Shown here in pieces: positions 5,757 through 23,549 of a stretch of 64,000 bases of DNA. Within the stretch, counting starts at the first letter, position 1. Every line of letters starts with the position of its first letter. The translations under genes and the position numbers were made by a program. This DNA comes from Candidatus Levyibacteriota bacterium (GTDB taxonomy: Bacteria; Patescibacteriota; Microgenomatia; Levybacterales; UBA12049): NCBI GenBank assembly GCA_016432345.1, contig CP066685.1:624236-688235 (forward strand), written 5' to 3'. The notes beneath the pieces were generated by a model. The model made no database searches and had not been told where the DNA came from. It was given only the letters and a program-made list of their open reading frames with translations.

Positions 5757-5801
5757 TTGTCTTTATTCCTGCCCAAACCTATATGAAAGGAGGAAGGAAA
5801 C

Positions 5802-6086: not shown

Positions 6087-6119
6087 AACTAACCGTTTTA
6101 ATGACCTTGTTTTCAACTT

Positions 6120-7895: not shown

Positions 7896-8701
7896 AAAGT
7901 GTGCGAATTTATAAAGATGATATTAGAACCCATATTCTACGAAGTTTGTTTTTTACCGATACAGCATTAGTGGTTATAGGCAGTATTGTGATTGGAGCAC
8001 TACTGTACTTTTTATTCGTCTATGTTTTCCATTCTTTTAATTGGGGCTACTATATTTCCTCGCTATTTTTAGGCGTTCTTTGTTTTATCCTTTTTATTAC
8101 CCAACGAATTGATAATCAGCCAATATTTAAAGTAGTGCCAAGAGCAATCAGGTTTACTACAGGGAAGAAAAATCAACGCTTCGCTGATTTAGAAGATTAT
8201 TTTGTTGATTTTACGATCAAAGATAACTTGATTGTGCGAGACAACACCATTATTGGGGTCTATGAGATAGAACCATTTGATGTAGCTCTTTTGAATGAGC
8301 AAGATAGAGAACATTTTTATGTCAAATTAAAACAGGCTATTCACATTCTGTCTTCCCAGATTCAACTGATTGTTAAAAAAGACCAGGCAAAAACGACAGA
8401 TTACTCAAATCACTTTTTCTCCCTCTATGAAAGTTCCTCCAAGAAGCGGGAGCAACTGATTAATCAATACCTTGAAGACCTAACTACTATTATTGATGAA
8501 AATCACTTTATGATGACACGTCACTTCGCAGTCTTATCAATCCCTTGTGACCCAACAAAGCCAAATAGCTTAGTCCAGGGAGTCAAAAGACTTAATGATC
8601 TTTCACTTCGTTTTGCTCAATCCCTAGCTCTTTGTAATATTTCTATCCAGGCTTTGGAAAATGAGCAGTTAAAACACTTTATGAAGGAGACGCTGCGATG
8701 A
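7892..8701 (+). CDS. VirB3/PrgI-like membrane protein with VirB4-N-terminal-like extension
   Basis: 269 aa with two N-terminal TM helices. The following segment (IGVYEIEPFDVALLNEQDREHFYVKLKQAI) resembles the N-terminal domain usually found in VirB4-family ATPases. Start and stop overlap both neighbours. Confidence 0.5.
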   Translation: MKSVRIYKDDIRTHILRSLFFTDTALVVIGSIVIGALLYFLFVYVFHSFNWGYYISSLFLGVLCFILFITQRIDNQPIFKVVPRAIRFTTGKKNQRFADLEDYFVDFTIKDNLIVRDNTIIGVYEIEPFDVALLNEQDREHFYVKLKQAIHILSSQIQLIVKKDQAKTTDYSNHFFSLYESSSKKREQLINQYLEDLTTIIDENHFMMTRHFAVLSIPCDPTKPNSLVQGVKRLNDLSLRFAQSLALCNISIQALENEQLKHFMKETLR

Positions 8702-10896
8702 GCAAAACACAAACAACAAACCTACCAGTAAAAAGAGGCAGAGGCAGACCACGCAAAACTGACCAACCAGTAACTCAATCTGTTATTCGTAAACGAACAC
8801 CAATTACCAAAGAAGTAGTCGAAAACTTTAATTCTTTTCGGATGACCGGGGTATTAAAAGAACAAGTACAGCTTTTAGAACATCAAAAAAGTTACGAAGA
8901 AAATGAACTCTTAAAACTCAAGCGGGAATATGAGCTGATTAAAAAGAGGAATGAAGGACTAGAAACCATTGAAAAGCACTTCTTCAACGGAGAATCGAAA
9001 ATCCCTCATAATGCCATTACAAATGTCCTAAAACAGGAGATTAAAAGACTGATGGGCATTGTTACTACTCAGGAGGAAATCATTAAAAAAGAGCCGTTTA
9101 TGACTACCAGGGTTCCACTTCTGCAAAAACCCAGTTTTATTAAAACCAGGCATCCTATTAAGTTAGTCAAAAACTTCTTTAAATTCCAGAAAGAATTAAA
9201 AGACTATGAAAAAGCAGTGTTAAATTCTTCCCAAGTACCATTCCATTTAACTTTAGAGAAAAATGGTGAAGGAATACATCTTGATAACGATTCCGGCAAA
9301 TCATACAAAAGCGAATACATTAAAGAACGTAATGCATATATTGAAGTTGGAGAAAAACTCAAGCGGTTTTATTATCTGGCTGACATTCCAGCCTACTTAT
9401 CCCCATATATTTTCTTTCGGCTTTTAACTTCATCCTTGCCTTTTACCTTGAGTATCTTTATCGAGCCATCCCCAAGCAGTGAGCTGCTTAAAAAAGCCAG
9501 ACAAAGGCAATCTGTGTTAGAAGTCCAGCAAAACGAACGGGTGAGGAGTGGCAAAATTAGAGATCAGCAGATTGATAAAAATATTGAGGAAGTCACTGCT
9601 TTTATTGATGAACTCATCCATGAAGCAGAAAAAGGTGTGGTGTATTCGCTCTACTTGCAGCTTGAAGCACAAGATGAAAAAGAATTAGCCAACCTTCATA
9701 AACAACTGCAAAACTTAACCAGTTCAATGGATGTAACTTTTAACCAATACACCTTTGCCCAAAAAAGAGCATTTAAAAACTTTCTGCCCTTTACCCAGGA
9801 TCATTTGCAGGAAAACAGGATTTTACAATCAACAGCAGTTTCCTACATGCTGCCCTTTGTCTCAAAACAGCTTCAAGATCCAAAAGGAATTTTTATGGGA
9901 GTAAATACCTACAATAATTCCTTAGTCTTCCTTGATCCTTTTACCTCTCGGAATAACAACGTTAATATCTTTGGAGTTTCAGGATCTGGAAAAAGTGTCA
10001 CCGCTAAAATACTGATGAACAGATTATATATGCGGGGAGTTCAGATTATTGTGATTGACCCAGAAGGTGAATATGTGTCACTTGCCAAAGCTTTAGGCGG
10101 TGAAGTCATTCAATTCTCCAGAGAGAATGGCATTAATCCATTCTATATCCAATCTTCCAAAGAAAATGATATCTTAGACCATATTTCAACGCTTAAAACC
10201 TTTTTTAAATTCTTTATTCCACCGTCCCATTATGATGGATCGTTGTTGGATGAAAAATTAATTGAACTGTACGACAATGGCACACCGCATTTTGATAATC
10301 TTTTAAAACTTTTAAGGAAAAGCCCAATGAAACAGGATTTAAGCGTGCTCTCAACTGGAAGTTTGCGGGGAGTCTTTAACTCCAATAGAAAATTAGAACT
10401 GGATTCAGACATCATTGTTTTAGATTTACATGATTTGAAAAAAGACGAGAAACGTGATCCGGCCATGTATTTACTCACTTCTTTGATCTGGAACTTAGTC
10501 AACAAAAACAATGACAGAAAACGGATGTTATTTATTGATGAAGCTCACAAACTGTTAGTTGATCCAGAAGTAGCGATATTTTACCGAGAATTAGTAAAGC
10601 AGGCCAGAAAAAGAAATGTGGGAGTTGTATCAGTCACCCAGGATGTGGAAGACTTTTTGCATAATGAATATGGTAAAGCCATTATCACCAACTCCGAAAC
10701 AAAGATACTTTTGAAACAATCTTATGCTGCATTATCTGAAATCGGCACCATTTATCCGATGACTGATGAGGAAAGATCTCAACTAGGACATCTAGAAATA
10801 GGTGAGGTATTTCTATTTCGGGAAGGAGAGCATATTCGGCTCAATGTGTTAGTGCTGCCGTTTGAAAAACCTCTGGTATTTTCTAACCTTGAGTAA
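8698..10896 (+). CDS. virB4: VirB4/TraC/PrgJ-family conjugation ATPase
   Basis: 732 aa. Walker [20 protein letters not shown], Walker B MLFIDEAHKLL, VSVTQDVEDF. The N-terminus carries KRGRGRPRK (AT-hook-like) and a long coiled-coil-like Lys/Glu-rich stretch. Confidence 0.9.
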   Translation: MSKTQTTNLPVKRGRGRPRKTDQPVTQSVIRKRTPITKEVVENFNSFRMTGVLKEQVQLLEHQKSYEENELLKLKREYELIKKRNEGLETIEKHFFNGESKIPHNAITNVLKQEIKRLMGIVTTQEEIIKKEPFMTTRVPLLQKPSFIKTRHPIKLVKNFFKFQKELKDYEKAVLNSSQVPFHLTLEKNGEGIHLDNDSGKSYKSEYIKERNAYIEVGEKLKRFYYLADIPAYLSPYIFFRLLTSSLPFTLSIFIEPSPSSELLKKARQRQSVLEVQQNERVRSGKIRDQQIDKNIEEVTAFIDELIHEAEKGVVYSLYLQLEAQDEKELANLHKQLQNLTSSMDVTFNQYTFAQKRAFKNFLPFTQDHLQENRILQSTAVSYMLPFVSKQLQDPKGIFMGVNTYNNSLVFLDPFTSRNNNVNIFGVSGSGKSVTAKILMNRLYMRGVQIIVIDPEGEYVSLAKALGGEVIQFSRENGINPFYIQSSKENDILDHISTLKTFFKFFIPPSHYDGSLLDEKLIELYDNGTPHFDNLLKLLRKSPMKQDLSVLSTGSLRGVFNSNRKLELDSDIIVLDLHDLKKDEKRDPAMYLLTSLIWNLVNKNNDRKRMLFIDEAHKLLVDPEVAIFYRELVKQARKRNVGVVSVTQDVEDFLHNEYGKAIITNSETKILLKQSYAALSEIGTIYPMTDEERSQLGHLEIGEVFLFREGEHIRLNVLVLPFEKPLVFSNLE

Positions 10897-10901
10897 TATG
10901 T

Positions 10902-11687
10902 ATGAAAGTTCTCTCCGTTGCCAACAAAGCTAGACAACTTAAAAACGACCCCATTGGCTTTATTCTTGATAGCCTTATTGCCATTATTGTTAATTTGTTT
11001 ATCCCTATTCCACTAGCTGGAACGCTTGTTTCTGAATTTATCTCTCAATTCAAAGCACCACTCCTTGGGTTATTAGCATCACTAGTGCTGCTGGCTATTT
11101 TTATGATTACCGTAGTTGGCACTATTGTTACTTTACCCATTATTGCCTCCACTGGATTTTTCTCACAAATCTTTTCACCAAACCTTCCTGGTGATAATCC
11201 TTTACATATCCCACCAGACACCAGTTTTGTAGCAACCAATGTGCCAAAACAAAACCCTTTTGGTGGATCAGGTATGTCATACACTACTACCACAGCCTAT
11301 TTTATGGATCCAGATTACTATCTTAAATTTGGTAAAAATCATATGGGTATTGATTTTATCCCTTCGGATGAATACTTTAAAAGCAGTCAAACTTACAAAA
11401 ATACCCAAAAGGTTGTGATTTTTGCTACCATGAATGGGCGTGTGAGGCATTATGTAGATCAATATGGCGGTGAAACAGTGGAAATTACTAACACTGACAA
11501 TTCAGTTAAGGTGTTATATGTTCACTTTAGTATAGTCTTAGTAGAATCTGGCAGTGTAGTACCCGGAACACCAATTGGCATTATGGGAGAAACAGGCTTT
11601 GCTACAGGTGAACATCTGCATTATGAGATACAAACCAAAGATGGTAATAACTGGATAGCAACAAATCCGTTAAATTATATACAATAA
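10902..11687 (+). CDS. membrane-anchored M23 (LytM-type) peptidoglycan hydrolase
   Basis: 261 aa with N-terminal TM helices. M23 motifs HMGIDF and GETGFATGEHLHYEI. It occupies the place of a VirB1-type cell-wall hydrolase. Confidence 0.85.
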   Translation: MKVLSVANKARQLKNDPIGFILDSLIAIIVNLFIPIPLAGTLVSEFISQFKAPLLGLLASLVLLAIFMITVVGTIVTLPIIASTGFFSQIFSPNLPGDNPLHIPPDTSFVATNVPKQNPFGGSGMSYTTTTAYFMDPDYYLKFGKNHMGIDFIPSDEYFKSSQTYKNTQKVVIFATMNGRVRHYVDQYGGETVEITNTDNSVKVLYVHFSIVLVESGSVVPGTPIGIMGETGFATGEHLHYEIQTKDGNNWIATNPLNYIQ

Positions 11688-11691
11688 ACGT

Positions 11692-12480
11692 ATGGAGAAT
11701 GACAAAAATACACTAACAAAAAAACAAAGACGAGTATTTCAGCTAGGAGTATTTATTCTTCTGGTGCTTTTTATGATTGGCTTTTTCTTCTTTAATCAGA
11801 AAAAAGAAGAGCAACCTACATTAAAAAATACCACCGTGTATTTACAAGATGATAAATTGAAGGTATTTGACGATGCTTATTCCTTTGAGTATCCGGATCG
11901 GATGTCGCTTCATTATCCATACTTTTTAGTGATTAAGCCTGGTATCCAGACAACGTATATTTACAATCTTGAACAAAAGAAAAAGGAAAAAGAGGTCAAA
12001 GAAGTATTACTGGATTATTCAACTATTGGTCAGTTATATACCAAAGGCAAAACAACATTTCTAAATAACCAAGATTTAGGAGTACTTTGTGAGAAAGGCT
12101 TTATTAAAAGCACTGATGATGTGCTTTGCTTAACAAAATATGATGTTAATGCAGTACAAAATATGTTAATTACTATTAATCTCAAAACCTTAAAAAACAG
12201 GGATTTGTATGTTTCCAGAGGCATTCTTTCTGATGTAAAGGTGATTAATGACAAAATATATTTAGGCGAAATTGATACCCATACCCACAAAAACCATATT
12301 TTAGTAGATAAAGAGCCTATTGGCGTTCCTAACATTATATCTACAATCTATGAGATGAATGGAAAACCATATTTTGCCTCCTTTAAAAGCGAATTAAATA
12401 ACAATACAGAAAGTTATTATTTAATTGAAAATGATAAAGTTACAAAACAAAAAGGAAATAGGATTTATTTGTTTAAATAG
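11692..12480 (+). CDS. hypothetical N-terminally anchored protein, last gene of the T4SS-like operon
   Basis: 262 aa with a single N-terminal TM helix (VFQLGVFILLVLFMIGFFFF) and a beta-rich-looking ectodomain. No catalytic motif. Confidence 0.5.
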   Translation: MENDKNTLTKKQRRVFQLGVFILLVLFMIGFFFFNQKKEEQPTLKNTTVYLQDDKLKVFDDAYSFEYPDRMSLHYPYFLVIKPGIQTTYIYNLEQKKKEKEVKEVLLDYSTIGQLYTKGKTTFLNNQDLGVLCEKGFIKSTDDVLCLTKYDVNAVQNMLITINLKTLKNRDLYVSRGILSDVKVINDKIYLGEIDTHTHKNHILVDKEPIGVPNIISTIYEMNGKPYFASFKSELNNNTESYYLIENDKVTKQKGNRIYLFK

Positions 12481-14729: not shown

Positions 14730-14911
14730 TTTGTAAGTTTTTTCTCTGACTCTTCAACCAATTCTTTTAATGCTTTGGCAATATCACCAGAAACTTCCGG
14801 CAGCATATTTAAGATTCTGATTGCTCTTTCTCTGGTTGCCCAGGCAGGATTAATTTTTTTGATCTTTTCAATCATTGCCTGTATTTGTTCTTCCGTATAA
14901 TTTTTATCCAT
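14726..14911 (-). CDS. hypothetical small protein
   Basis: 61-aa ORF directly downstream of the PLD nuclease gene on the same strand. No motif. Confidence 0.35.
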   Translation of the reverse strand: MDKNYTEEQIQAMIEKIKKINPAWATRERAIRILNMLPEVSGDIAKALKELVEESEKKLTN

Positions 14912-14940
14912 AGTAATTCTTCTGCGATTATAGCACTTTT

Positions 14941-15408
14941 TTATAAAATCTTGCCTAGTTTTAAAAAATTGAGCATTTCCAAAGCTAAACTCCTGTCTTC
15001 TATCCTTCTCATTACTTCTAGACTCTTTGTTTGAGACAAAATATTTAAACTGCCCTCGTATAGTATATTTCTGTCAATTATCGCCAGTTTCCTGTGATGA
15101 AATCCTTTTAATAATACCATATTTATGCCTATTTCTTGACAGTTTAGTATTTCATTTGTTGCCTGATGCCTCATATATTCATCTTCATGGTCAATAGGAT
15201 CTCTAGTAATAATCGCTACTTTTACCCCATTTTGGATAAGTTTTTCAAAGATTGGATACAACGATTCCATGCGTGAGGCGGTCAAGTATGGACTTTCAAC
15301 AACAAGCTCTTTCTGGCAATTTTTTAAATCCTTTAGAAAAGCTTGATAAAATCCGTTTTCATCAAAGAGGGTAGAGGAGAAAACTGGAGGTTTCCTGAAG
15401 CTAAACAT
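14941..15408 (-). CDS. PLD-family (single HKD) Nuc-like nuclease
   Basis: HKD motif in GFHHRKLAIIDRNILYEGSLNI (H-x-K-x4-D...GS-N). I prefer the ATG at 15408 (MFSFRKPP), which overlaps the upstream stop as AATGTTTAG, over the tracked start at 15468. Confidence 0.8.
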   Translation of the reverse strand: MFSFRKPPVFSSTLFDENGFYQAFLKDLKNCQKELVVESPYLTASRMESLYPIFEKLIQNGVKVAIITRDPIDHEDEYMRHQATNEILNCQEIGINMVLLKGFHHRKLAIIDRNILYEGSLNILSQTKSLEVMRRIEDRSLALEMLNFLKLGKIL

Positions 15409-15619
15409 TAGATTCCTCCTCAGATACTTCAATAATGACGACTTTTCCGTTATAATAGGTAAAGCCAAGATCAGTGAGCTTGTGGTATGTTTGGATCAAA
15501 GAATCAAAAATTTGTTTCCACCCATCCCCGGTATGGCTCACTAAATGATATTTGTGTTTTTGGAGTCTTTTAGCCTCAAGAAATTGCAGATATTTCTTCA
15601 AAATTAAGCCTATAACCAA
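15401..15619 (-). CDS. hypothetical small protein translationally coupled to the PLD nuclease
   Basis: 72 codons from a TTG start that lies inside the tRNA-like remnant. A degenerate copy of its first ~25 codons occurs at ~19175-19250. Confidence 0.4.
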   Translation of the reverse strand: MVIGLILKKYLQFLEAKRLQKHKYHLVSHTGDGWKQIFDSLIQTYHKLTDLGFTYYNGKVVIIEVSEEESNV

Positions 15620-15640
15620 GAGACCGAGCAGGATTCGAAC
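15616..15640 (-). other. tRNA 3'-end-like remnant (T-loop + acceptor 3' strand), copy A
   Basis: The minus strand reads GTTCGAATCCTGCTCGGTCTCTTGG. No matching acceptor 5' strand or D/anticodon arms lie upstream, so this is not a gene. An identical 25-mer is at 19247-19271. Confidence 0.5.
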
Positions 15641-15659
15641 TGCTGATTAGATTGTTCTA

Positions 15660-15830
15660 TCAACCTTTTTCATTTTCAAAGTACGGATCACCAATATCCC
15701 CTTCCCAGTTATCTCCATAAAAATATTGCATTAACCCACAACATAATTTATAAACAAACACTTGTATTCTCTTTAAATCTTCATCTGACAAGTCAGGATA
15801 ATATTTTCGTATTACATCCAATGGCAGCAT
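15660..15830 (-). CDS. conserved 56-aa ORF, copy A
   Basis: Below the ORF-track cutoff. GGAGGTGA RBS 9 nt before the ATG. Sequence MLPLDVIRKYYPDLSDEDLKRIQVFVYKLCCGLMQYFYGDNWEGDIGDPYFENEKG. A same-length paralog at 19291-19461 differs mostly by conservative changes. Confidence 0.55.
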   Translation of the reverse strand: MLPLDVIRKYYPDLSDEDLKRIQVFVYKLCCGLMQYFYGDNWEGDIGDPYFENEKG

Positions 15831-15901
15831 CGTAAAAAATCACCTCCTTTATTTAAGGATGAAAGGACTATCTACTTAGATAGTAATTAAGAATAATATA
15901 C

Positions 15902-17239
15902 ATGTCCCATAGTTTGACACAAAGTTACAAATATGGTAATATTCTCCTCATGTCTCAAGAACAAAGACCTGAAAAGAACATCTGGGATCAAGCTCTTGAA
16001 GGGGTGGACTTCTCTAAACTTGATAAAGGAAAAGAGGGTGAGTACCCCACTATTTCACCTAGAGAAATTTCCGAAGCGTATGAAACTTATCCATTAAAAG
16101 GAGATTTAATGCGCCTTGCTAATGAAAATCTTAAAGAAGCTAGGGCTCAAGCGGAGGGTGCAAAACCAAGAGAAAGAAAAACTCATGATATGGGTTGGGA
16201 ATTGGCTATAGACACTCCTCAAGGTATGGTTGGACTTTGGAGTTGCTGGTTGGGAAATCAATTCTATCTAGGATTTCCTAAATCAACAAGTCGTGTTATG
16301 GATTCGGTTGACACACAAACTGTTATTAGTCTAGGAAATCATCTTAGAATAAATCAATTATCACCAAACGCCCCTTGGTGGCAACGAAAACTGCTTGATT
16401 ATCAAGGCGCTAGAGGTCAATTAGAAGAAATGTCTGATCCTGAATTAAGAGAGGCTTTAAGATTACATAGAGTTCCATTTCGTGATATTCCATTTATTCC
16501 TGTAACTGATGAATTAGTAATACAAACTTTAGGTGTTGAAAGAGCAAAACCTGTAAAACAGGTTAATGCTACTGCGGTAAATGATCCAAATTATCGTGGT
16601 GAGTTTGCAGACCCAGAAAAGCCATTAGAGCAAAATAGAGCAGGACAAATTGTAGGCTATCAAGATGCCGGAGAGAGACAATGGGCTAAATTTTATGGTC
16701 CAATGGAGCCAACAGGCGGTAGAGTTTGGGTTGATTATTCTGGTTTTCATTCTAATGGTATGCACTTCCCATATATAGATGAGCAAGGGCAACTTCAATC
16801 TTTATATTATGGTCATGATAGATCTAATGGAATTTATACCGAACAATTTAGTTTTTATAACCAGTATGCCCCAGAAGGGCCAACTGCTGATCCCGAAGCA
16901 ATCCAAAAATATAGAGATAGATTTATTAGATTGGCTGCTGAAATAGTTTTTATAATGGGCGGTCCAAAAGCTGTAAACATCGATTATGGTTATTCAATGG
17001 TACCCGAGGATTTATACAAAGAAGGTTATGAAGATATAGCTTGGCTAAAAGGAGATTTGGGAGAAAGAAAAGGATGGGGTAACGAGATAGTGAGAGGAAG
17101 AAAAGGTGATGGTACTGTAATCTTAAAGAGTGCTAATAGCTTAGTTCCTTGGTCTACTACTCTCCGTGCCCCTGTCGGAAGGTTGGCTTCTCCAGCAATG
17201 CTTGCAGATTTTATAAAAGAAGATATACTTTGGTTTTAA
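15902..17239 (+). CDS. hypothetical soluble protein (orphan, 445 aa)
   Basis: Long ORF with no TM helix, signal peptide or motif. It diverges from the copy A module. The true start may be the internal MSQEQ. Confidence 0.55.
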   Translation: MSHSLTQSYKYGNILLMSQEQRPEKNIWDQALEGVDFSKLDKGKEGEYPTISPREISEAYETYPLKGDLMRLANENLKEARAQAEGAKPRERKTHDMGWELAIDTPQGMVGLWSCWLGNQFYLGFPKSTSRVMDSVDTQTVISLGNHLRINQLSPNAPWWQRKLLDYQGARGQLEEMSDPELREALRLHRVPFRDIPFIPVTDELVIQTLGVERAKPVKQVNATAVNDPNYRGEFADPEKPLEQNRAGQIVGYQDAGERQWAKFYGPMEPTGGRVWVDYSGFHSNGMHFPYIDEQGQLQSLYYGHDRSNGIYTEQFSFYNQYAPEGPTADPEAIQKYRDRFIRLAAEIVFIMGGPKAVNIDYGYSMVPEDLYKEGYEDIAWLKGDLGERKGWGNEIVRGRKGDGTVILKSANSLVPWSTTLRAPVGRLASPAMLADFIKEDILWF

Positions 17240-17241
17240 TT

Positions 17242-17586
17242 ATGTCACCCCTAAGAATAGAAGCATACAGAAGCGATTTAAGTAAATGGGTTCAAGTAGG
17301 CGAAGTGAAACCCGGGGATCCTCCTGGTTCAATATCACAAAATAAACCAGATGGCACAAGAGAATTATACTTATTTGAATGTGCTCCTGATAATTCACAA
17401 TCAACAATTTACCGCTCAAAATTTGGTGCAGATGTAGATATGGGACAGCTAAGAGCTGTTATCAGTGATAGAGCTAATTGGGAAACTATTAAAGTTTTGA
17501 GAGAAGGAGAACCTCCTTACAGAATGACCTTAAAAACTGATGTAAGCCCTCAACGCAGAATCATTCGCTTTACACACCATAAATAA
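17242..17586 (+). CDS. hypothetical protein (114 aa)
   Basis: The ATG at 17242 lies 2 nt after the upstream stop. The tracked ORF (17149) extends into the previous gene. Confidence 0.45.
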   Translation: MSPLRIEAYRSDLSKWVQVGEVKPGDPPGSISQNKPDGTRELYLFECAPDNSQSTIYRSKFGADVDMGQLRAVISDRANWETIKVLREGEPPYRMTLKTDVSPQRRIIRFTHHK

Positions 17587-17599
17587 GACTTTGAAAAGG

Positions 17600-18775
17600 C
17601 TAATCACCTGGTACATCAAAAACCAGAACAGTTAAAATTAACTCGCGGTTAGGATCATCTTTGTGATTTAATAAATAACGAAATCCAGTTTCGGATTTAA
17701 ACTCCATGTCTCTTTTATAATTTGGGTGTTCTTTAATTGTTGGTGGAATTTTTTCTAAAACAGCAGATAGATTTTTATTTCGATTAAAAATTATTAGTGC
17801 GGTTTTTGTATCCCTCCATGATGCATAACCCAATAACTGATCTAAGGCTTTGGCTAAATATTCTGGTCCCTCCCAGAATTTACATTCAGCAATAAAGATA
17901 TTTTTCTCTTTGTAGCGGATTAATATATCCGTCTTGCCGTTGTAGTTAAAAGTTTCTCCTGTTGCGCCACCCGGGAAAAGTCCATTCAGAGGCACTAAAA
18001 GTAGGAAGCGCAATGTTTCTTCCTCCATATCCTGAAAAGCTTTAGGGCTTCTCTCAAATACTAATGTCATATGATGAATAGCATCTAGTATCGAATCGTA
18101 ATCACTTTCACTTAAAAAGTATTCCTGATTTTGGGATTTACTGCCAGTAGATTGACTAATATTTAATTGTTTTTTTCTCACAGGTATTTCGTAAAATCTC
18201 TTTGCTACTGAGTCACTCTTTAGGGGGTATCTGAACGACTCAACAAACTGTCTATTTTTTCCAACTTGAGCAGCTCTATTCAAAAATTGACTGTTGATAA
18301 AACTAGAAAGGTGAACATTAAATCCTTTTATATCATAATTTAAATTCTCGATATTAAACTGTAAATCCTCCAGATCCTTTTCAAACATAGATTGTACTGT
18401 CTCGGGGTAATCGGTAGACGATGTATATACATAAGAAATCCCACCATTAACGATACTCATACAATCTTTGGGTAGTCTATAGGTAGATGGGTTGTATTCA
18501 AGTAAGTTAGTATCGCCACTTATTGGCACAAAGAAAGTCGTGCGCATTGCATTTGATCCAAAGCCATCTCTGTTAATTTCTGAGTGTTCTCGATCTATCT
18601 GGTCTTTATTTAGCTCAAATGAGGGAAGCATATAATTCTCAAGAAATTCCTTTTGTAAGCTTGCACCTTGAGAGTCTATAATATGATCAAGATTAGCAAT
18701 GCTTTTTATGATTTCCTCTTTAATTTTTTGAAAGACGTAACTAAGATTGCCTTTTCTAAATGGTATGTTATTCAT
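17600..18775 (-). CDS. protein with C-terminal PD-(D/E)XK-like nuclease motif
   Basis: 391 aa. The C-terminal GKTDILIRYKEKNIFIAECKFWEG fits D...(E)xK. The N-terminal ~250 aa have no motif. Confidence 0.55.
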   Translation of the reverse strand: MNNIPFRKGNLSYVFQKIKEEIIKSIANLDHIIDSQGASLQKEFLENYMLPSFELNKDQIDREHSEINRDGFGSNAMRTTFFVPISGDTNLLEYNPSTYRLPKDCMSIVNGGISYVYTSSTDYPETVQSMFEKDLEDLQFNIENLNYDIKGFNVHLSSFINSQFLNRAAQVGKNRQFVESFRYPLKSDSVAKRFYEIPVRKKQLNISQSTGSKSQNQEYFLSESDYDSILDAIHHMTLVFERSPKAFQDMEEETLRFLLLVPLNGLFPGGATGETFNYNGKTDILIRYKEKNIFIAECKFWEGPEYLAKALDQLLGYASWRDTKTALIIFNRNKNLSAVLEKIPPTIKEHPNYKRDMEFKSETGFRYLLNHKDDPNRELILTVLVFDVPGD

Positions 18776-18793
18776 ATTAGATTTAAATTACTC

Positions 18794-19000
18794 TTAATTT
18801 TCAATTAATAAACTATCTGTCTGCTTTGTTATCAATCTAATAATATCTTCCCTGCGGTATCTTCTTTCCCCAACTCCTTTTTTATTTCCTACACGAATTG
18901 CTTTTAACTTTCCGGATTTATCCCATCTTCTAAGGGTTGGTGGCATAACCCCTAGTATTTTCGCAACTTGGTTAATTGTAAGAAGTTTTGACCGCTCCAT
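18794..19000 (-). CDS. MerR/excisionase-type HTH protein
   Basis: 68 aa. LTINQVAKILGVMPPTLRRWDKSGKLKAIRVG is a typical HTH_17/Xis-like pattern. It lies 18 nt upstream of the 391-aa gene. Confidence 0.75.
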   Translation of the reverse strand: MERSKLLTINQVAKILGVMPPTLRRWDKSGKLKAIRVGNKKGVGERRYRREDIIRLITKQTDSLLIEN

Positions 19001-19119
19001 CTTATCCTAATTAAAAGTAGTTAACAATTGTTATTGTACATGATTTTGCATAAAAAATAGGTTTTTAAGGCTAATTCCGGTTGCAACCACCATATTAAAT
19101 CTGGTAAACTACTCATTGT

Positions 19120-19172
19120 AAGGAATTCTTGCGAGAACTCACGCAGTCTGTGCAATATCTCGTGAGGATCAC
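19120..19172. repeat. ~53-bp direct repeat, copy 1
   Basis: Contains the 23-mer AACTCACGCAGTCTGTGCAATAT (19136-19158), identical to 21259-21281, with similar flanks. Confidence 0.75.
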
Positions 19173-19246
19173 CCAATAATATTTGTGATTTTGTAAGGTT
19201 TTAGCTTCAAGAAATTGTGGAGAATTCCTCAAATTTAAGCCTATAA

Positions 19247-19271
19247 CCAAGAGACCGAGCAGGATTCGAAC
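19247..19271 (-). other. tRNA 3'-end-like remnant, copy B
   Basis: Same 25-mer as 15616-15640. The sequence 5' of the T-loop differs from copy A. Confidence 0.5.
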
Positions 19272-19290
19272 TAATGTTTAGGTTGTTCTA

Positions 19291-19461
19291 TCAACCCTCT
19301 TCATTTTTCCAGTCCCATCCATCACTATCCTTTTCCCAATCAGGTCCATAAAAATACTGCATTAACCCACAGCATAATTGATAAACAAATACTTGTATTT
19401 TCTTTAAATCTTCATCGGATGAATCCGGATAATATTTTCTAATTACATCTAAAGGTAGCAC
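19291..19461 (-). CDS. conserved 56-aa ORF, copy B
   Basis: GTG start 9 nt after GGAGGTGA. Sequence VLPLDVIRKYYPDSSDEDLKKIQVFVYQLCCGLMQYFYGPDWEKDSDGWDWKNEEG. Same length as copy A. Confidence 0.55.
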   Translation of the reverse strand: MLPLDVIRKYYPDSSDEDLKKIQVFVYQLCCGLMQYFYGPDWEKDSDGWDWKNEEG

Positions 19462-19559
19462 CGTTAATAATCACCTCCTTAGACAATCAAAAATTATTAA
19501 CCATAAAACTCAACCTATAGTTTGCTTTGTAGCTTCATTTAAGGTATAATATATATTCT

Positions 19560-21134
19560 ATGGGTGAAAGAATCCAACCAAACGACTTAAGTACATCTCG
19601 AGACCCTCATTTGCAGGGTCTTATAGCGCAGAATATCCAAGCTCTAGGTGAGCAACCTCTAGTTAGAGTTGTTCAAGCACTCCAAAGATTCAATGGTCCC
19701 GTAACAGTTCAAGAGAAGGATGGAACGCAAAGGGTTGATAACAACTGGCATTTAAGACAGGTCTTACAAGAATTACCAGGTTATGCAGAAGCATCGGAAC
19801 ATGCTGGATTAGCACCAGACCAAGCTGAAGGATTACTTACTCACCTACTAAACTCTACTCCATATGACTTCGAACGCAATGAAATTAATGTCTCATTACT
19901 TAAACGTTCACTTAATCAGGAAGCCGAGCTTAATCAGAGACTTACCAAAAGAGATATCGGTAGACTAAGAAGAATGATTACCATAGCAGGTAAATATGGA
20001 GTGCTCCCTCACACAATTTACGGCTATACAACAGCCCGAAGAATTGGGCTTTCTATACAAGATAGCACAGCAATGGTCATGCACCTATCTGATGCAGATG
20101 GTTCATTAGCTGGTTATACTTTTGGTTCATTTAATGAGGCACTCTCATCCTTAGCTATTGCACAAGTTGACCCTGAAGTTGTCAAAGATACTTTTGCTCG
20201 TGTAGGCGGAAGAAGACCATATTTTAGACAGGGTTTATATAGGGCACTCGAAGAAATGATTACATTTGGCTGTCCTTCAAATAGAACAAATCCCCAGGAA
20301 GTATTACAGGGACTACTCGCAAACCTACAAGAGGGTGAAGATATTGAAACGGCTATAGAAAGATATCTTAGTGAAGAACAAAGAAAACTTCCAAACGAGA
20401 ATGAAGTGGTAATTTATGAACTAGGTGAAGAAAGAGATAGCTACTTTATTCCCAAGGCTGGACATCTTGAACTCGCTGCTTTACCATACAGAACCCAGCG
20501 TGGTTTGAATGATGGAGTAAGGGACTTAGAAGAAATTGCTAGAGCTCGAAGTCATAGATGGGAATCTGTTGGTGAGGGCATGTGGATTTTTGACCCCAAT
20601 GGAGACACTTGGTATTCGTTAGGTGGTAAAACAGAAGTCCATCCAGATAGGGTTAGGCATAACTTTATTCCTTATGACGCCTCTCAACTTAGCGAAAAGC
20701 CCTATATGTTTCACACCCATCCTGAAGATTTGGAAGTAATGCTAAGAAATCCTTACGATGATTTCCCATCCAGGGAATATAGAGATCATGTTACTAAGTT
20801 TTTGTCTTCTACACCAAGCAGGGCTGATTATTCTGTGGTTGCAGATACCATTGAAAGAGCTACTTCAGAAATTCATCCTAGATCATTTATCGTTCACTCA
20901 TTAGGAATAACGGAATTCACATACCCAAATGATTTAGAAAAAATAAAAGAAATGGCTACTAAATCAAGAGACATTAGAGATCAGGCTATGTTAAATTTCG
21001 GCTGGGATTACCTTCATTGGAGACGAGATATTATCGATGAACCAACAGTAGCGAGAATGCTAATAGATGATTTGAATAAACTTCTACCCGAAGGATTCTC
21101 AATTAAATTGCATGAGCCTGGAACCAATCTCTAA
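19560..21134 (+). CDS. hypothetical soluble protein with C-terminal JAB/MPN-like metal-site motif
   Basis: 524 aa. MFHTHPED...(~30 aa)...SSTPSRADY resembles the H-x-H...S-x-x-D motif of JAMM/RadC-type domains, but with a long insertion. Confidence 0.55.
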   Translation: MGERIQPNDLSTSRDPHLQGLIAQNIQALGEQPLVRVVQALQRFNGPVTVQEKDGTQRVDNNWHLRQVLQELPGYAEASEHAGLAPDQAEGLLTHLLNSTPYDFERNEINVSLLKRSLNQEAELNQRLTKRDIGRLRRMITIAGKYGVLPHTIYGYTTARRIGLSIQDSTAMVMHLSDADGSLAGYTFGSFNEALSSLAIAQVDPEVVKDTFARVGGRRPYFRQGLYRALEEMITFGCPSNRTNPQEVLQGLLANLQEGEDIETAIERYLSEEQRKLPNENEVVIYELGEERDSYFIPKAGHLELAALPYRTQRGLNDGVRDLEEIARARSHRWESVGEGMWIFDPNGDTWYSLGGKTEVHPDRVRHNFIPYDASQLSEKPYMFHTHPEDLEVMLRNPYDDFPSREYRDHVTKFLSSTPSRADYSVVADTIERATSEIHPRSFIVHSLGITEFTYPNDLEKIKEMATKSRDIRDQAMLNFGWDYLHWRRDIIDEPTVARMLIDDLNKLLPEGFSIKLHEPGTNL

Positions 21135-21242
21135 AAGGGTGCTTAAGAAGTATGATCTACCTGTAATTGAAGAATAAACTATACATACTTATACATTTTT
21201 CAGGCCAAATTGGTAGGCAAACTCAGAGTTTAGACCGTCCTG

Positions 21243-21295
21243 AAGGAATAATTTGAAAAACTCACGCAGTCTGTGCAATATATCGTTGGGATCAC
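21243..21295. repeat. ~53-bp direct repeat, copy 2
   Basis: See 19120-19172. It also reads as TTGAAA-17 nt-CAATAT, which is promoter-like on the + strand. Confidence 0.75.
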
Positions 21296-21299
21296 TGAA

Positions 21300-21520
21300 T
21301 TGGAAATCCCAAAAGAGTCCAAAGGTTGGCTCTGCGCGGGAACGGGCGCGCAGAGCTCTGCAAAGCCCCGTTTGAATTCTGGCACAAGTCGCCGATCAGT
21401 TAAAAAGAAGTTCGAGCCGACAGTTTTTGCTCCGATTGCTAAATCGGAGCATGTATTTTTTGCAAACACAAAAGACAGATGCGCGCGATTTTTTATATTA
21501 TAATCCCGCAAGGCGGGACA
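21300..21520. ncRNA. GC-rich hairpin-dense non-coding island R1 (unknown family; orientation unresolved)
   Basis: Three strong hairpins: 21329-21356 (10 bp), 21429-21450 (9 bp) and 21504-21518 (6 bp). The core GTTCGAGCCGACAGTTTTT at 21410-21428 is shared with 26732-26750. The only ORFs here are mutually overlapping on both strands. Confidence 0.4.
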
Positions 21521-21576
21521 AGACAAAACACAAATGTTTTCTTAGTCAACCCTACTAAAGCTCATTTATATTTAAC

Positions 21577-22533
21577 TTATTGGAGAAACTTAAAGGAGTT
21601 AAGTATTAAATCTACCGTGGCTTTTTCTGTTGGTTCTGTCTTATTTTTAGTATTAACAGCAGCTATCCAAATATAAATTACTTGGTCGCCTAATGGTTGA
21701 AAGTCAGCAAAATAATATACTTTGGAATGTGTTCCATCCTCATATTTAGAAGTCCACACAGCAACATCTTTACCATTTAGAGTTTTTTGTTCTATGGATT
21801 CAGTTTTTGCCCCTTGCTTATCCTCACCATATTTAGCATCATCTTTAACAAAAGCTAGCAGTTCATTCATGTTTGAAACTTTACCGCTATCCTTGTACCA
21901 GAAATATAAATTGGTATCAGTATCTTTATCGGAAGTGATAGTTACTTGCCCTTGCGCAAAAGGATAAGTACTTCTTTTCCAAGACTTTGGATAGTCAAAA
22001 GAGTAACCAAATTTCTTATCTTCATAATGAACCATTTCTCCCTGCTGAATTGTCTTAACATCATTTAGTTTATAAAGAACTACATTTCCTACAACAACAA
22101 GAACCGCAAGTGAAACTAGTCCTAAGAAAATCCAAGTAACAATTTTACCTATTTTTCCAAGAGGTTTGTTTGTACCACTAGCAGCTCTTTTTCCTCCAAA
22201 TCCTCCAATAAGGGTTATTGCTAGTCCTTGCCCAAAAGTAATTTCTTGTGTTAAAAGATAGACAACCACAGCTCCTAGTAAGCTGGCAAATAATGTAATT
22301 GATACTCCCTGCCAGAAAGGAGAGCCTAAAACCTTATTTACTTCTGGTGTTTTAGATAAAGATTTGACTCCGTAATAACCTGCAAGCCATGCAAAAAGTA
22401 GATTAAAAGGGACTTCTATCAAAGGACTACTCCCGCTCCCAAAAAGATAAGCAAAAAATAGGCTAACTGCAATGTTACCAAGAATTAATAATCCACTATA
22501 AATTAGTAAAGTTCGAAGAATTTTTGACCACAT
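21577..22533 (-). CDS. membrane protein with extracytoplasmic C-terminal domain
   Basis: 318 aa with ~5 N-terminal TM helices and a soluble domain (FGYSFDYPKSWK...). No catalytic motif. Confidence 0.6.
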   Translation of the reverse strand: MWSKILRTLLIYSGLLILGNIAVSLFFAYLFGSGSSPLIEVPFNLLFAWLAGYYGVKSLSKTPEVNKVLGSPFWQGVSITLFASLLGAVVVYLLTQEITFGQGLAITLIGGFGGKRAASGTNKPLGKIGKIVTWIFLGLVSLAVLVVVGNVVLYKLNDVKTIQQGEMVHYEDKKFGYSFDYPKSWKRSTYPFAQGQVTITSDKDTDTNLYFWYKDSGKVSNMNELLAFVKDDAKYGEDKQGAKTESIEQKTLNGKDVAVWTSKYEDGTHSKVYYFADFQPLGDQVIYIWIAAVNTKNKTEPTEKATVDLILNSFKFLQ

Positions 22534-22657: not shown

Positions 22658-23548
22658 ATGTCAGAAAAATTTAGCCTCCGTTCATTCAAGCAAAAATATG
22701 GTACGCATCAAGACTGCCTCGAAGCTATTAAGCAACTTCGTTTCCCCGATCCTTTTACTTGCCCAAAATGCAATACTATGCAGAAATTTTACCCTGTAAG
22801 TGGTCGTACAGCGTATGCTTGCAACAGTTGTGGAAACCACATCTATCCCCTAGCAGGAACAATCTTTGAGAAATCTACTACTCCCTTAGACTTATGGTTC
22901 TTTGCTATGTATCTTATGACACAAACGAGAAGTGGCACATCGGCTAAACAACTTGAAAGAATGTTAGGAGTAACATACAAGACAGCTTGGAGAATGTTTA
23001 AGCAGATAAGATTGCTTATGGTACAGTCTCCATCACTTTTAGATGGAATTGTGGAGATTGACGAAACATATTTTGGTGGTAAAGGAAAAAACAGAGCCTA
23101 CCAGTGGCATGGTGGGGTAGAGGAAAAAGAAATCATTATGGGCATTGTCAAAAGGAAAGGCACAGCTTACGCAAAACATATTCCTGATACGAAAAAGTGG
23201 ACTTTAATCAATCAAATAAAACAACATGTTGATCCCAAAGCCCATGTCATGACCGATGATCTTGCTTCATACAGACATTTATACGATCATGGATTCTACA
23301 AACACTACAGCGTAAACCATTCAAACAGGGAATACGTTAGACACCACCTTTTCCATACGAATAATGTAGAGGGCTTGTGGTCGCATATAAAACGTGGGGT
23401 TTATGGTGTGTATAGGAAAGTCAGTAAAAAATACTTACAGGCATATATTGACGAATACACCTGGAGATACAATAATAGGAATTATATCGGTGGAATGTTT
23501 GATATCTTGCTAAAACAGGTTACAGAAGTTAAGATAATAAAAGAGTAA
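22658..23548 (+). CDS. IS1595-family (ISXO2-like) DDE transposase
   Basis: 296 aa. N-terminal Zn-ribbon CPKC...CNSC, then VEIDETYFGG and MTDDLASY...NNVEGLWSHIKR, typical of DDE_Tnp_IS1595. Confidence 0.9.
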   Translation: MSEKFSLRSFKQKYGTHQDCLEAIKQLRFPDPFTCPKCNTMQKFYPVSGRTAYACNSCGNHIYPLAGTIFEKSTTPLDLWFFAMYLMTQTRSGTSAKQLERMLGVTYKTAWRMFKQIRLLMVQSPSLLDGIVEIDETYFGGKGKNRAYQWHGGVEEKEIIMGIVKRKGTAYAKHIPDTKKWTLINQIKQHVDPKAHVMTDDLASYRHLYDHGFYKHYSVNHSNREYVRHHLFHTNNVEGLWSHIKRGVYGVYRKVSKKYLQAYIDEYTWRYNNRNYIGGMFDILLKQVTEVKIIKE

Positions 23549-23549
23549 T

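What the first reader, a model, noticed from the sequence alone, without database searches (positions are those of the whole stretch)
15545..15850. Duplicated ~300-bp module (second copy ~19175-19480), each heading a different large orphan gene
The two segments align by eye over their whole length, with most positions identical. Each contains, on the minus strand, a strong GGAGGTGA RBS and a 56-codon ORF of identical length. Differences between the two ORFs are largely conservative. Each then has the identical 25-mer GTTCGAATCCTGCTCGGTCTCTTGG (tRNA T-loop plus acceptor 3' strand), and then the start of the 72-aa ORF. That start is intact in copy A and truncated or chimeric in copy B. On the other side each module faces a unique large + strand gene (15902 and 19560). 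This looks like a reusable cassette head or the scars of serial integration at a tRNA gene. It does not look like a simple IS.
Basis: seen in the sequence. Interest (0 to 1): 0.6.

Follow-up and report, generated by a model that had tools for sequence, protein, structure and literature searches.

The report
Gene cassettes stacked behind tRNA genes
The 300-base repeat is the conserved end-piece of small, recombinase-less gene cassettes that pile up one behind another at the 3' end of tRNA genes in Microgenomates (CPR) bacteria and carry defence and toxin genes; the window holds two complete cassettes of such a stack.

Summary
The duplication is real. Positions 15535-15842 and 19166-19473 align without gaps at 82% identity. 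Each copy carries the RBS, a 56-codon ORF and an identical 38-nt block.

It is not a local duplication. The 56-aa gene plus about 118 nt of conserved non-coding DNA recurs in about 100 Microgenomates loci. In 27 of 70 copies it ends about 112-125 nt before a convergent tRNA gene (Lys-UUU, Lys-CUU, Glu, Ile-UAU or Gly). In 15 of 70 it ends at a 6-7-nt copy of the tRNA's 3' end, followed by a second conserved 130-nt element I call "D5". D5 is the far end of the next cassette, so each unit reads core | module | cargo | D5 | core.

The window holds cassette A (15542-19165; cargo includes a PDC-S54 defence gene) and cassette B (19173-21288; a single 524-aa gene). It also holds the start of a PLD-nuclease cassette, but no tRNA.

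No integrase or transposase lies in or near any cassette. One syntenic pair of genomes shows a tRNA-Ile site occupied in one and empty in the other.

The junction shared with tRNAs is GGCTCAC/GGATCAC at the other end of the module.

Best reading: serial site-specific insertion by an enzyme acting in trans. This resembles tycheposons or cis-mobilizable elements (CIMEs).

The parts
15535..15541 (+). Core 1, GGCTCAC: a copy of the last 6 nt of tRNA-Lys plus 1 nt. It marks the boundary between the PLD cassette and cassette A.
   Evidence: The reverse complement, GTGAGCC, is the only sequence shared by the module-tRNA and module-D5 junctions.
15542..15659 (-). 'cons' A: 118 nt of conserved non-coding DNA forming the right end of cassette A. 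It contains direct motifs (AGGCTTAA and GAGGCTAAAA) and a small variable hairpin.
   Evidence: The nhmmer profile hit covers 15651-15535 at E 1.5e-27. RNAalifold finds no consensus structure.
15604..15641 (-). The 38-nt block that is identical in both copies.
15660..15830 (-). 56-aa gene, copy A (RBS at 15840-15847). It belongs to an orphan helical protein family restricted to Microgenomates.
   Evidence: The family comprises 124 clusters, all about 56 aa long. A search of 1.8 billion protein representatives gives only 19 hits at E <= 0.001, none showing a credible fusion to a larger protein. The AF2 model has pLDDT 83.5 and Foldseek finds no match. pN/pS is 0.06 over codons 2-39.
15902..17239 (+). 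Cargo of cassette A: a 445-aa protein of unknown function.
   Evidence: No Pfam, NCBIfam or PADLOC hit. An 87%-identical copy, with its module, directly abuts tRNA-Lys(CUU) in L019.
17600..18775 (-). Cargo of cassette A: a homologue of the candidate defence protein PDC-S54.
   Evidence: PADLOC PDC-S54 at E 1.9e-119, full length.
18794..19000 (-). Cargo of cassette A: a 68-aa HTH_17/MerR-type DNA-binding protein.
   Evidence: Pfam HTH_17 at E 8e-13.
19040..19165 (-). D5, the left end of cassette A (variant 2). It encodes the C-terminal fragment of the small protein X (..DPHEILHRLREFSQEFL..).
   Evidence: nhmmer hit at 19179-19060, E 1.6e-20. The peptide is shown.
19166..19172 (+). Core 2, GGATCAC: the boundary between cassettes A and B.
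19173..19290 (-). 'cons' B, the right end of cassette B, including the 25-mer at 19247-19271.
   Evidence: nhmmer hit at 19282-19166, E 2e-28.
19291..19461 (-). 56-aa gene, copy B (GTG start; RBS at 19471-19478).
19560..21134 (+). The sole cargo of cassette B: a 524-aa protein of unknown function.
   Evidence: No hit in Pfam, NCBIfam, PADLOC or PDB.
21164..21288 (-). D5, the left end of cassette B (variant 1). It encodes the X C-terminal fragment ..DPNDILHRLREFFKLFLQDGLNSEFAYQFGLKNV*.
   Evidence: nhmmer hit at 21300-21174, E 9e-31. The substitution pattern is codon-like.
21289..21295 (+). Core 3, GGATCAC: the distal boundary of cassette B.
14944..15541 (-). The start of a third cassette on the tRNA-proximal side. 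It holds a 46-aa ORF whose GTG start lies in core 1, and a PLD-family nuclease.
   Evidence: Pfam PLDc_2. PADLOC MkoC- and DrmC-like hits. The same gene pair sits after a module in L031, and PLD sits after a module in L035.

Best explanation
The repeat is the conserved tRNA-proximal terminus of a family of small gene cassettes in Microgenomates (CPR/Patescibacteria). These cassettes carry no recombinase of their own. They accumulate head-to-tail directly downstream of tRNA genes.

Read along the strand that carries the tRNA gene, each cassette is: a 6-7-bp core identical to the extreme 3' end of the tRNA gene; then about 118 nt of conserved non-coding DNA; then the 56-aa gene, which points back toward the tRNA; then variable cargo (defence, toxin-antitoxin, Fic, nuclease or orphan genes); then a 130-nt 'D5' end; then the next core. 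D5 encodes the C-terminal 35 aa of a 63-aa protein, X, and the reading frame of X runs across the core.

Shown:
- the anatomy of the cassette;
- the association with seven tRNA species;
- same-orientation arrays;
- sharp 6-7-bp junctions;
- one occupied/empty site pair;
- absence of a cis recombinase;
- purifying selection on both small ORFs.

Inferred:
- A circular or linear cassette is inserted by conservative site-specific recombination at the last 6-7 bp of the tRNA gene. A tyrosine recombinase with a 6-8-bp overlap region fits best. It would be supplied in trans, by the host Xer-like enzyme or by a rarer autonomous relative.
- The cassette's own core regenerates the tRNA end.
- Each new arrival pushes older cassettes outward.
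- Homologous exchange between the conserved ends later reshuffles the cargo.
- The 56-aa protein is a cassette-encoded accessory factor for recombination or maintenance.

In the window the stack (PLD cassette, A, B) has been separated from its tRNA, or that tRNA lies outside the 64 kb.
For: Module position. Of 70 module copies, 27 end 97-148 nt before a convergent tRNA. The tRNAs are Lys-UUU, Lys-CUU, Glu-UUC, Ile-UAU and Gly-UCC/CCC/GCC. Another 15 are followed at about 112 nt by D5. A further 10 have a small inserted gene and then a tRNA or D5.

D5 copies. About 70 copies occur in the genome loci and about 50 more in 37 metagenome loci. All have the same orientation as the 56-aa gene, and there are up to 5 per locus.

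Junctions. The junction consensus shows that only GTGA[G/T]CC or TGGAGC is shared between tRNA and D5 junctions. The subgroup of module tracks the tRNA type.

Order of arrival.
- L010 has a cassette next to tRNA-Lys. Its relatives L012 and L018 have extra cassettes inserted between that cassette and the tRNA.
- The L019 copy of window cassette A abuts tRNA-Lys(CUU).
- L094 has one cassette that exactly fills the gap from the tRNA-Lys 3' end to the next gene.

Occupied versus empty site. L005 reads DivIC / XerD-like / 2,144-nt cassette / tRNA-Ile / DUF8128. L108, L110 and L111 show the same synteny without the cassette.

No recombinase.
- No recombinase family appears among the cargo clusters.
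- tblastn with the L005 integrase finds nothing.
- Pfam scans of the window find none.

Selection. The 56-aa gene has pN/pS 0.06 over codons 2-39. D5 differences by codon position are 0.20/0.16/0.34, against 0.555 in the DNA downstream.

Literature analogue. In tycheposons, tandem elements are separated by partial tRNAs, with newer elements pushing older ones outward.
Against: - No recombinase has been tied to the cassettes, so the enzymology is entirely inferred.
- The shared core of 6-7 bp is much shorter than the 15-45-bp tRNA repeats typical of integrase-borne islands. It is equally the size of a transposition target duplication.
- No circular or excised form was seen, and no attB-attP pair could be aligned base by base. 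The empty and occupied flanks are too diverged.
- The window itself has no tRNA next to the stack.
- The conserved inverted tRNA fossil and the 56-aa protein have no demonstrated role.
Confidence: 0.7

Rival explanations
1. Cassette swapping by homologous recombination only. The conserved module and D5 act merely as homology anchors, for example after natural DNA uptake. The tRNA adjacency is an ancestral accident that spread by recombination, and no site-specific enzyme is involved.
For: - No recombinase is found in or near about 100 loci.
- Cassettes are mosaic. The Fic unit shares about 82% identity from the core to just past the gene in six contexts.
- Truncated modules occur (L012).
- The identical 38-nt block could be a gene-conversion tract.
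Against: - The same architecture sits at seven different tRNA species. A matching switch of core (GTGAGCC versus TGGAGC) and co-diverged module subfamilies accompany the change of tRNA.
- Junctions are sharp to the base at the tRNA 3' end, and the tRNA end is regenerated.
- Right ends of three unrelated kinds (a, b and c) all stop at the same core.
Confidence: 0.15
2. Site-specific transposition. The cassettes would be non-autonomous transposon derivatives, like miniature Tn7-type elements. A trans-acting transposase inserts them downstream of tRNA genes and duplicates a 6-7-bp target.
For: - The elements are flanked by 6-7-bp direct repeats.
- They have two conserved but different ends carrying internal repeated motifs (AGTTCGAT twice, AGGCTWAAA twice).
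- No cis enzyme is present.
- An IS1595 transposase lies 1.4 kb from core 3 in the window.
Against: - No transposase family recurs near the arrays.
- No clear terminal inverted repeats exist. Only a weak ATGATAT symmetry appears in some variants, judged by eye.
- The 'duplication' always equals the tRNA's own 3' end and keeps the tRNA intact, as in integrase systems.
Confidence: 0.1
3. The 25-mer is the displaced 3' end of the tRNA gene into which the elements integrated, so it is the att scar.
For: The 25-mer matches tRNA-Lys(UUU) 3' ends best, for example L067 GGTTCGAATCCTGCACGGGTCAC. Its counterpart in the Gly subgroup matches tRNA-Glu. It is more conserved than synonymous sites.
Against: - It lies on the strand opposite to every neighbouring target tRNA, about 95 nt inside the element.
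- It is retained unchanged whether the module abuts a tRNA, a D5 or a GIY-YIG insert.
- It is not at any boundary of homology between cassettes, apart from the GIY-YIG replacements.
- No tRNA is called there by ARAGORN, or by Rfam at E<=10.
Confidence: 0.03
4. A simple local segmental duplication within this genome, followed by divergence. The two copies would then be paralogues with no mobility.
For: There are two copies 3.6 kb apart in the same orientation.
Against: - Homology stops exactly at the RBS on one side and at the 7-nt core on the other, with unrelated DNA beyond.
- The same module appears in at least 65 loci of other genomes, with other cargo.
- Copy A is closer to L019 (87%) than to copy B (82%).
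Confidence: 0.02

Closest known systems
Tycheposons of Prochlorococcus (Hackl et al., bioRxiv 10.1101/2020.12.28.424599)
   Same: - They insert at the 3' ends of several tRNA genes.
- Tandem elements are separated only by a partial tRNA, and newer arrivals push older ones into the island.
- Degenerate remnants occur.
- They carry cargo of adaptive or defence genes in streamlined genomes that lack classical mobile elements.
   Different: - Tycheposons are defined by their own tyrosine recombinase, and their partial tRNA repeats are tens of nt long.
- Here no cassette carries a recombinase, and the repeat is 6-7 nt.
- The conserved ends here (56-aa gene plus inverted tRNA fossil; split gene X) have no tycheposon counterpart.
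Cis-mobilizable elements (CIMEs) and tandem accretion of ICEs/IMEs (reviewed in PMC5704250), and tandem ssrA islands of Dehalococcoides (PMC3146451)
   Same: - These are non-autonomous elements bounded by att sites but lacking integrase.
- They stack in tandem at one attachment site.
- They are thought to be moved by an integrase provided in trans.
   Different: - CIMEs are decay products of recognisable ICEs or IMEs in the same species.
- Here no autonomous parent was found in about 100 loci or in IMG/VR.
- Here the ends carry their own conserved small genes.
Integron gene-cassette arrays
   Same: - They form same-orientation arrays of 1-4-kb units, each with one or a few genes.
- The units are delimited by a conserved recombination element.
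- No recombinase lies inside the cassettes.
- The first ORF starts at the junction.
   Different: - No IntI gene or attI platform is present here.
- The anchor is a tRNA 3' end.
- The delimiter is a 250-nt composite (cons + core + D5) with coding content, not a 60-120-nt attC hairpin. RNAalifold finds no consensus fold.
SSV-type archaeal integrases, whose att site lies inside their own ORF (PMC7253208, PMC8371274)
   Same: The recombination core lies inside a reading frame (protein X..G-[E/D/A]-P..). Integration therefore leaves a C-terminal gene fragment at one end of the element.
   Different: - The split gene here is a 63-aa protein of unknown function, not the integrase.
- The N-terminal part was never seen next to a tRNA.
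IMEX elements (integrative elements exploiting host Xer recombinases); comparison from my own knowledge, not tested here
   Same: - They have no recombinase of their own.
- They have short core sites.
- They integrate serially in tandem.
- Some encode a small activating factor.
   Different: IMEXs target dif, not tRNA genes. Nothing here shows that the conserved chromosomal XerD-like gene acts on these sites.

Membership tests
tRNA-integrated genomic island (Islander-type definition, PMC4383910) | An intact tRNA or tmRNA gene at one end of the island | tested here: not met
   In the window, ARAGORN and Rfam find only tRNA-Lys(CUU) at 57772 and tRNA-Arg at 60527, far from the stack. The feature is met in related loci: 27 of 70 modules abut a tRNA.
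tRNA-integrated genomic island (Islander-type definition, PMC4383910) | A displaced fragment of the tRNA 3' end as a direct repeat at the other end | tested here: inconclusive
   A direct repeat is present but covers only 6-7 nt (GGCTCAC/GGATCAC; TGGAGC in the Gly group), with weak similarity for about 6 more nt.
tRNA-integrated genomic island (Islander-type definition, PMC4383910) | A tyrosine integrase gene inside the island | tested here: not met
   Pfam scans of 50 window ORFs find none. No integrase cluster or tblastn hit appears in about 100 loci. The one neighbouring XerD-like gene (L005) is a conserved chromosomal gene that is also present at empty sites.
Tycheposon | An element-encoded tyrosine recombinase of the tycheposon clade, plus a replication module | tested here: not met
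   No recombinase, primase or helicase module occurs in cassettes A or B, or in recurrent cargo.
Integron | An intI integrase gene with an adjacent attI site and Pc promoter at the head of the array | tested here: not met
   No tyrosine recombinase lies next to the arrays. The arrays are anchored on tRNA 3' ends.
Integron | attC sites: imperfect palindromes that fold as a hairpin with R''/L''-L'/R' boxes | tested here: not met
   RNAalifold on 42 cons sequences gives no consensus structure on either strand. The delimiter contains coding sequence.
Insertion sequence or transposon | A transposase gene and terminal inverted repeats | tested here: not met
   There is no transposase in A or B. The repeat finder reports no inverted repeat pairing the cassette ends. 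The IS1595 copy at 22658-23548 lies outside the cassettes.
tRNA gene or tRNA-like element (for the 25-mer) | A cloverleaf, or at least a T-arm plus acceptor helix, recognisable by covariance models | tested here: not met
   ARAGORN makes no call. Rfam gives no tRNA hit at E<=10 over 14900-21700. The 5' T-stem partner is not conserved across the family.

The most novel reading that the evidence does not exclude
Microgenomates carry an integron-like but integrase-free gene-capture system anchored on tRNA 3' ends. Cassettes that bear only two tiny conserved genes would recruit the cell's single housekeeping Xer-type recombinase, or an undiscovered enzyme, to a 7-bp site at the tRNA terminus. The two genes are the 56-aa protein and the split 63-aa protein X. 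The 56-aa protein and the inverted tRNA-fossil DNA would act as the targeting or activating module, and the splitting of X would act as a switch that records the integrated state. That would be a new class of host-recombinase-exploiting element, and the main route of defence-gene exchange in CPR bacteria.
Probability: 0.2. Interest if true: 0.85.

Novelty: new variant of a known kind. Interest (0 to 1): 0.62.

Why it matters
CPR/Patescibacteria have tiny genomes, and few recognisable mobile elements have been described for them, so how they exchange defence and toxin genes is poorly understood. This finding exposes a widespread and highly stereotyped cassette system:
- about 120 D5 ends and about 80 modules in about 100 loci;
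- seven tRNA targets;
- six candidate phyla of Microgenomates.

The system concentrates Fic, HigBA-like, NYN, PLD, PDC-S54, GIY-YIG and orphan genes behind tRNA genes, and none of the cassettes encodes its own recombinase.

It offers three things:
- precise, testable recombination sites;
- two uncharacterised conserved micro-proteins;
- a ready way to mine cargo, such as the 445-aa and 524-aa orphans here, as candidate defence genes.

If the enzyme proves to be the host Xer recombinase, it would extend the IMEX principle from dif to tRNA genes.

Tried and rejected
- **Covariance and tRNA scans of the 25-mer region.** They found nothing.
- **RNA structure for the 118-nt conserved stretch.** RNAalifold gives no consensus on either strand. 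A small hairpin shows some compensatory changes by eye, but I did not count them formally.
- **Function of the 56-aa protein.**
  - Pfam, NCBIfam and PADLOC give no hit.
  - The AF2 model is confident, but Foldseek against PDB is empty.
  - An exhaustive profile search finds only 19 representatives, nearly all small.
  - IMG/VR holds no relative.
- **Function of protein X.**
  - No family hit.
  - No fusion to a larger protein.
  - The AF2 model has pLDDT 63, too poor for a fold search.
- **Search for a recombinase.**
  - I clustered cargo ORFs.
  - I ran tblastn and phmmer with the one nearby integrase.
  - I ran four Pfam scans of the window.
  - The one candidate, the L005 XerD-like gene, is a conserved chromosomal gene that is also present at empty sites.
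- **445-aa versus 524-aa cargo.** They are unrelated, so I rejected the idea that they are a shared novel recombinase.
- **Type-b right end in the window.** Not present.
- **Base-by-base attB/attP reconstruction from L005 versus L108.** The flanks are too diverged.
- **Primer-binding-site or retroelement reading of the tRNA-complementary core.** I considered and dropped it. The complementarity is just the tRNA gene's own end, with an element-supplied CCA in one allele.
Full report
**1. The observation**

The two segments are a genuine repeat. The repeat finder reports 15535-15834 against 19166-19465, 300 nt ungapped at 82% identity. My base-by-base alignment extends it to 308 nt at 81.8%. It runs from the RBS GGAGGTGA (15840-15847 and 19471-19478 on the minus strand) to a 7-nt motif (GGCTCAC at 15535-15541, GGATCAC at 19166-19172).

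Homology stops abruptly on both sides. Only 327 of 20,000 shuffles of the match string give a run that long. The 21-mer core of the 25-mer is expected 0 times by chance in the window.

Both 56-codon ORFs are present. Between the two copies pS is 0.49 and pN is 0.14. For codons 2-39 the values are pS 0.545 and pN 0.033. The acidic tail evolves freely. The two large + strand genes are unrelated to each other.

**2. The module is a family-wide feature that sits at tRNA 3' ends**

The 56-aa protein has 124 clusters of homologues, nearly all 54-60 aa. Every named source is Microgenomates: Daviesbacteria, Levybacteria and 'Patescibacteria group'.

A scan of one genome per species returned 65 loci. 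I ran ARAGORN on them. The gene's stop codon is typically followed after 112-125 nt by a tRNA gene on the opposite strand. The tRNAs are Lys-UUU, Lys-CUU, Glu-UUC, Ile-UAU and Gly-UCC/CCC/GCC.

The 70 non-redundant module copies break down as follows:

| Category | Copies |
|---|---|
| Abut a tRNA within 200 nt | 27 |
| Followed at about 112 nt by a second conserved element (D5) | 15 |
| Small inserted gene, then a tRNA or D5 | 10 |
| Truncated | 6 |
| Run off the contig | 1 |
| Other | 11 |

Ten loci besides the window hold two modules in the same orientation, 1.7-5 kb apart. Only the tRNA-proximal one touches the tRNA.

**3. The other end of the unit: D5 and the core**

The window's own secondary repeat (19120-19177 against 21243-21300) led to D5. 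D5 is a 130-nt element that begins with GTGA[G/T/A/C]CC in the Lys/Glu/Ile group, or with TGGAGCTCCTGACG in the Gly group.

A profile search finds about 70 D5 copies in the genome loci and about 50 in 37 further metagenome loci. All are oriented like the 56-aa gene, and there are up to five per locus.

I aligned all junctions on this motif. The only sequence common to module|tRNA junctions and module|D5 junctions is GTGA[G/T]CC (7 nt) or TGGAGC (6 nt). This is the reverse complement of the last bases of the tRNA gene.

To the left of the core three unrelated right ends occur:
- **Type a:** the 56-aa gene plus 118 nt of 'cons'. This is the repeat in question.
- **Type b:** a 45-nt GTTAAC-rich sequence.
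- **Type c:** the N-terminal half of a small gene, X.

The repeating unit is therefore core | right end | cargo | D5 | core. The window maps as follows:

| Feature | Coordinates | Content |
|---|---|---|
| Cassette A | 15542-19165 | module A, 445-aa gene, a 145-aa ORF, a PDC-S54 homologue, an HTH_17 gene, D5 variant 2 |
| Cassette B | 19173-21288 | module B, 524-aa gene, D5 variant 1 |
| Third cassette, below core 1 | ends at 15541 | a 46-aa ORF whose GTG lies in the core, and a PLD nuclease; the same pair occurs in L031 |

**4. D5 is coding**

D5 encodes ..[G/C/S]-[E/D/A]-P-x3-L-x-R-L-x-E-F-x2-L-F-L-x-D-G-L-N-S-E-F-A-Y-x-F-G-L-K-x-x-stop. Substitutions among 28 copies are codon-like. Pairwise differences are 0.20, 0.16 and 0.34 at codon positions 1, 2 and 3, against 0.555 in the 40 nt downstream.

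Full-length versions of about 63 aa carry an N-terminal motif, ISPLYQxI. They exist as called proteins and in four loci. The core lies inside this reading frame, so most cassettes keep only the C-terminal fragment. This recalls SSV-type integrases, whose att site lies within the ORF (PMC7253208). Here, though, the gene is tiny and of unknown function.

**5. The 25-mer**

Across the family the sequence GAGTTCGAATCC-N5-GG(T/G)(C/T)TCTT is always 15-20 nt after the 56-aa stop codon, on the same strand as that gene. It is therefore inverted relative to every target tRNA and about 95 nt from the junction.

It best matches the 3' ends of tRNA-Lys(UUU), for example GGTTCGAATCCTGCACGGGTCAC in L067. 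Its counterpart in the Gly subgroup best matches tRNA-Glu. It lacks a conserved 5' T-stem partner, and neither ARAGORN nor Rfam calls it.

In about ten loci the DNA between it and the tRNA is replaced by a 90-aa GIY-YIG gene. I read the 25-mer as a fossil tRNA 3' end retained inside the element's arm. It may serve as a protein-binding site, since the related motif AGTTCGAT recurs next to the core in one allele. It is not the present integration scar.

**6. Evidence for insertion at the tRNA end**

- L010 has a given cassette directly against tRNA-Lys. Its relatives L012 and L018 have one more cassette (3.25 kb and 1.0 kb) between that cassette and the tRNA.
- The right part of window cassette A recurs at 87% identity directly against tRNA-Lys(CUU) in L019.
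- L094 has a single cassette that exactly fills the space from the tRNA-Lys 3' end to the next gene.
- L005 reads DivIC / XerD-like / 2,144-nt cassette (cores at 6145 and 8289) / tRNA-Ile / DUF8128. L108, L110 and L111 have the same synteny with no cassette, D5 or cons.
- In L005 the tRNA-Ile acceptor end carries the cassette-type ...GCTCA instead of the native ...GCCCA seen at the empty site. This is what one expects if the last few bases were supplied by the element.

**7. No enzyme in cis**

- Pfam scans of 50 window ORFs show no integrase. The only transposase is an IS1595 copy outside the cassettes.
- Clustering of all ORFs in about 100 loci gives these recurrent cargo families: Fic in 18 loci, Bro-N, HigBA-like pairs, NYN, GIY-YIG, YraN-like and PLD. 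No recombinase family appears.
- The single tyrosine recombinase next to a D5 (L005) has 75-88% identical orthologues in many genomes, at the same chromosomal position. It is a housekeeping Xer-type gene.
- IMG/VR holds no relative of the module.

**8. Interpretation**

The anatomy fits serial, conservative site-specific insertion at the extreme 3' end of tRNA genes. Under this reading the newest cassette lies next to the tRNA, and later homologous exchange between the conserved ends reshuffles cargo.

The closest described systems differ in these ways:
- **Tycheposons** carry their own integrase and have longer tRNA repeats.
- **CIME-type non-autonomous elements** (PMC5704250) derive from recognisable parents.
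- **Integrons** need IntI, attI and attC.

The 6-7-bp core fits a tyrosine-recombinase overlap region, but it equally fits a transposition target duplication. I rank the alternatives at about 0.7 for the general model, 0.15 for homologous exchange only and 0.1 for transposition.

The role of the 56-aa protein is unknown. It is helical, acidic and restricted to this lineage. I infer an accessory role in recombination or maintenance only from its invariant position and orientation at the att-proximal end.

**9. Verdict**

It is wrong about which sequence is the scar.

I found no description of this system in the literature searches. I classify it as a new variant of tRNA-targeting integrative cassettes. 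It is notable for the absence of any cis recombinase and for its two conserved micro-genes.

Noticed in passing
window 21296-21580: A G+C-rich stretch with three strong local hairpins lies directly beyond core 3. It has no convincing ORF and no Rfam hit at E<=10. Its minimum free energy has z = -2.8 or -3.0 depending on the strand. Pieces 77-83% similar occur in L044 (6582-6683) and L036 (4429-4526). It could be an unknown small RNA or a miniature mobile element.
   Followed up: partly
window 17600-19000 (minus strand): The 391-aa cargo gene is a full-length match to the PADLOC candidate defence family PDC-S54 (E 1.9e-119). A 68-aa HTH_17/MerR-type gene precedes it.
   Followed up: partly
window 22658-24997: An IS1595-family transposase (22658-23548) is immediately followed by a type II methyltransferase (23550-24497) and a restriction endonuclease (24494-24997). 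The whole 12.7-27 kb region looks like a defence island.
   Followed up: no
L007, L013, L014, L015, L036, L041, L047, L056, L060, L068 (just downstream of the 25-mer): A GIY-YIG gene of about 90 aa on the tRNA strand replaces the DNA between the 25-mer and the tRNA. It is flanked by palindromes that incorporate the tRNA 3' end (for example CACCAAGCTGAGCTTGGTGAG). It looks like a second, nested kind of tRNA-end-targeting selfish element.
   Followed up: partly
window 14944-15541 (minus strand); L031 6288-6858: A 46-aa ORF has its GTG start codon inside the 7-nt core and overlaps the start of a PLD-family nuclease (MkoC/DrmC-like). The pair is conserved in L031. PLD alone follows modules in L035 and a D5 in L096.
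   Followed up: partly
L005 5260-6129; L108-L112 6001-6867: A XerD-like recombinase gene is very highly conserved (75-88% identity in over 100 clusters). It sits in fixed synteny, DivIC / Xer / tRNA-Ile(UAU) / DUF8128-TrwB-like. Many of its contigs are only 1-3 kb long, which suggests that assemblies often break next to it.
   Followed up: partly
window 19560-21134: The 524-aa orphan cargo protein has HTHPED...TPSRADYS near its C-terminus. By eye this resembles a JAMM/MPN metalloprotease motif. No profile or PDB sequence hit supports it.
   Followed up: no
loci L007-L009, L012, L013, L016, L017, L019 and others: Many MAG records that carry the module are titled 'uncultured Gammaproteobacteria', although their gene content and closest relatives are Microgenomates. 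The taxonomy labels are probably wrong.
   Followed up: no
window 57772-57845 and 60527-60600: The window's two tRNA genes, Lys-CUU and Arg-UCG, do not encode CCA and carry no cassette behind them. In other genomes the same tRNA-Lys(CUU) is a frequent cassette target. One allele of the module supplies a CCA to the tRNA it abuts.
   Followed up: partly
window 1551-12480: This stretch holds an HATPase_c_3 protein, a Dcm-type methyltransferase, and a block of VirB6/TrbL-like, VirB4/TraG-like and M23-peptidase genes. That is a type IV secretion or DNA-transfer module next to the cassette stack. I did not establish whether it is linked to the stack.
   Followed up: no
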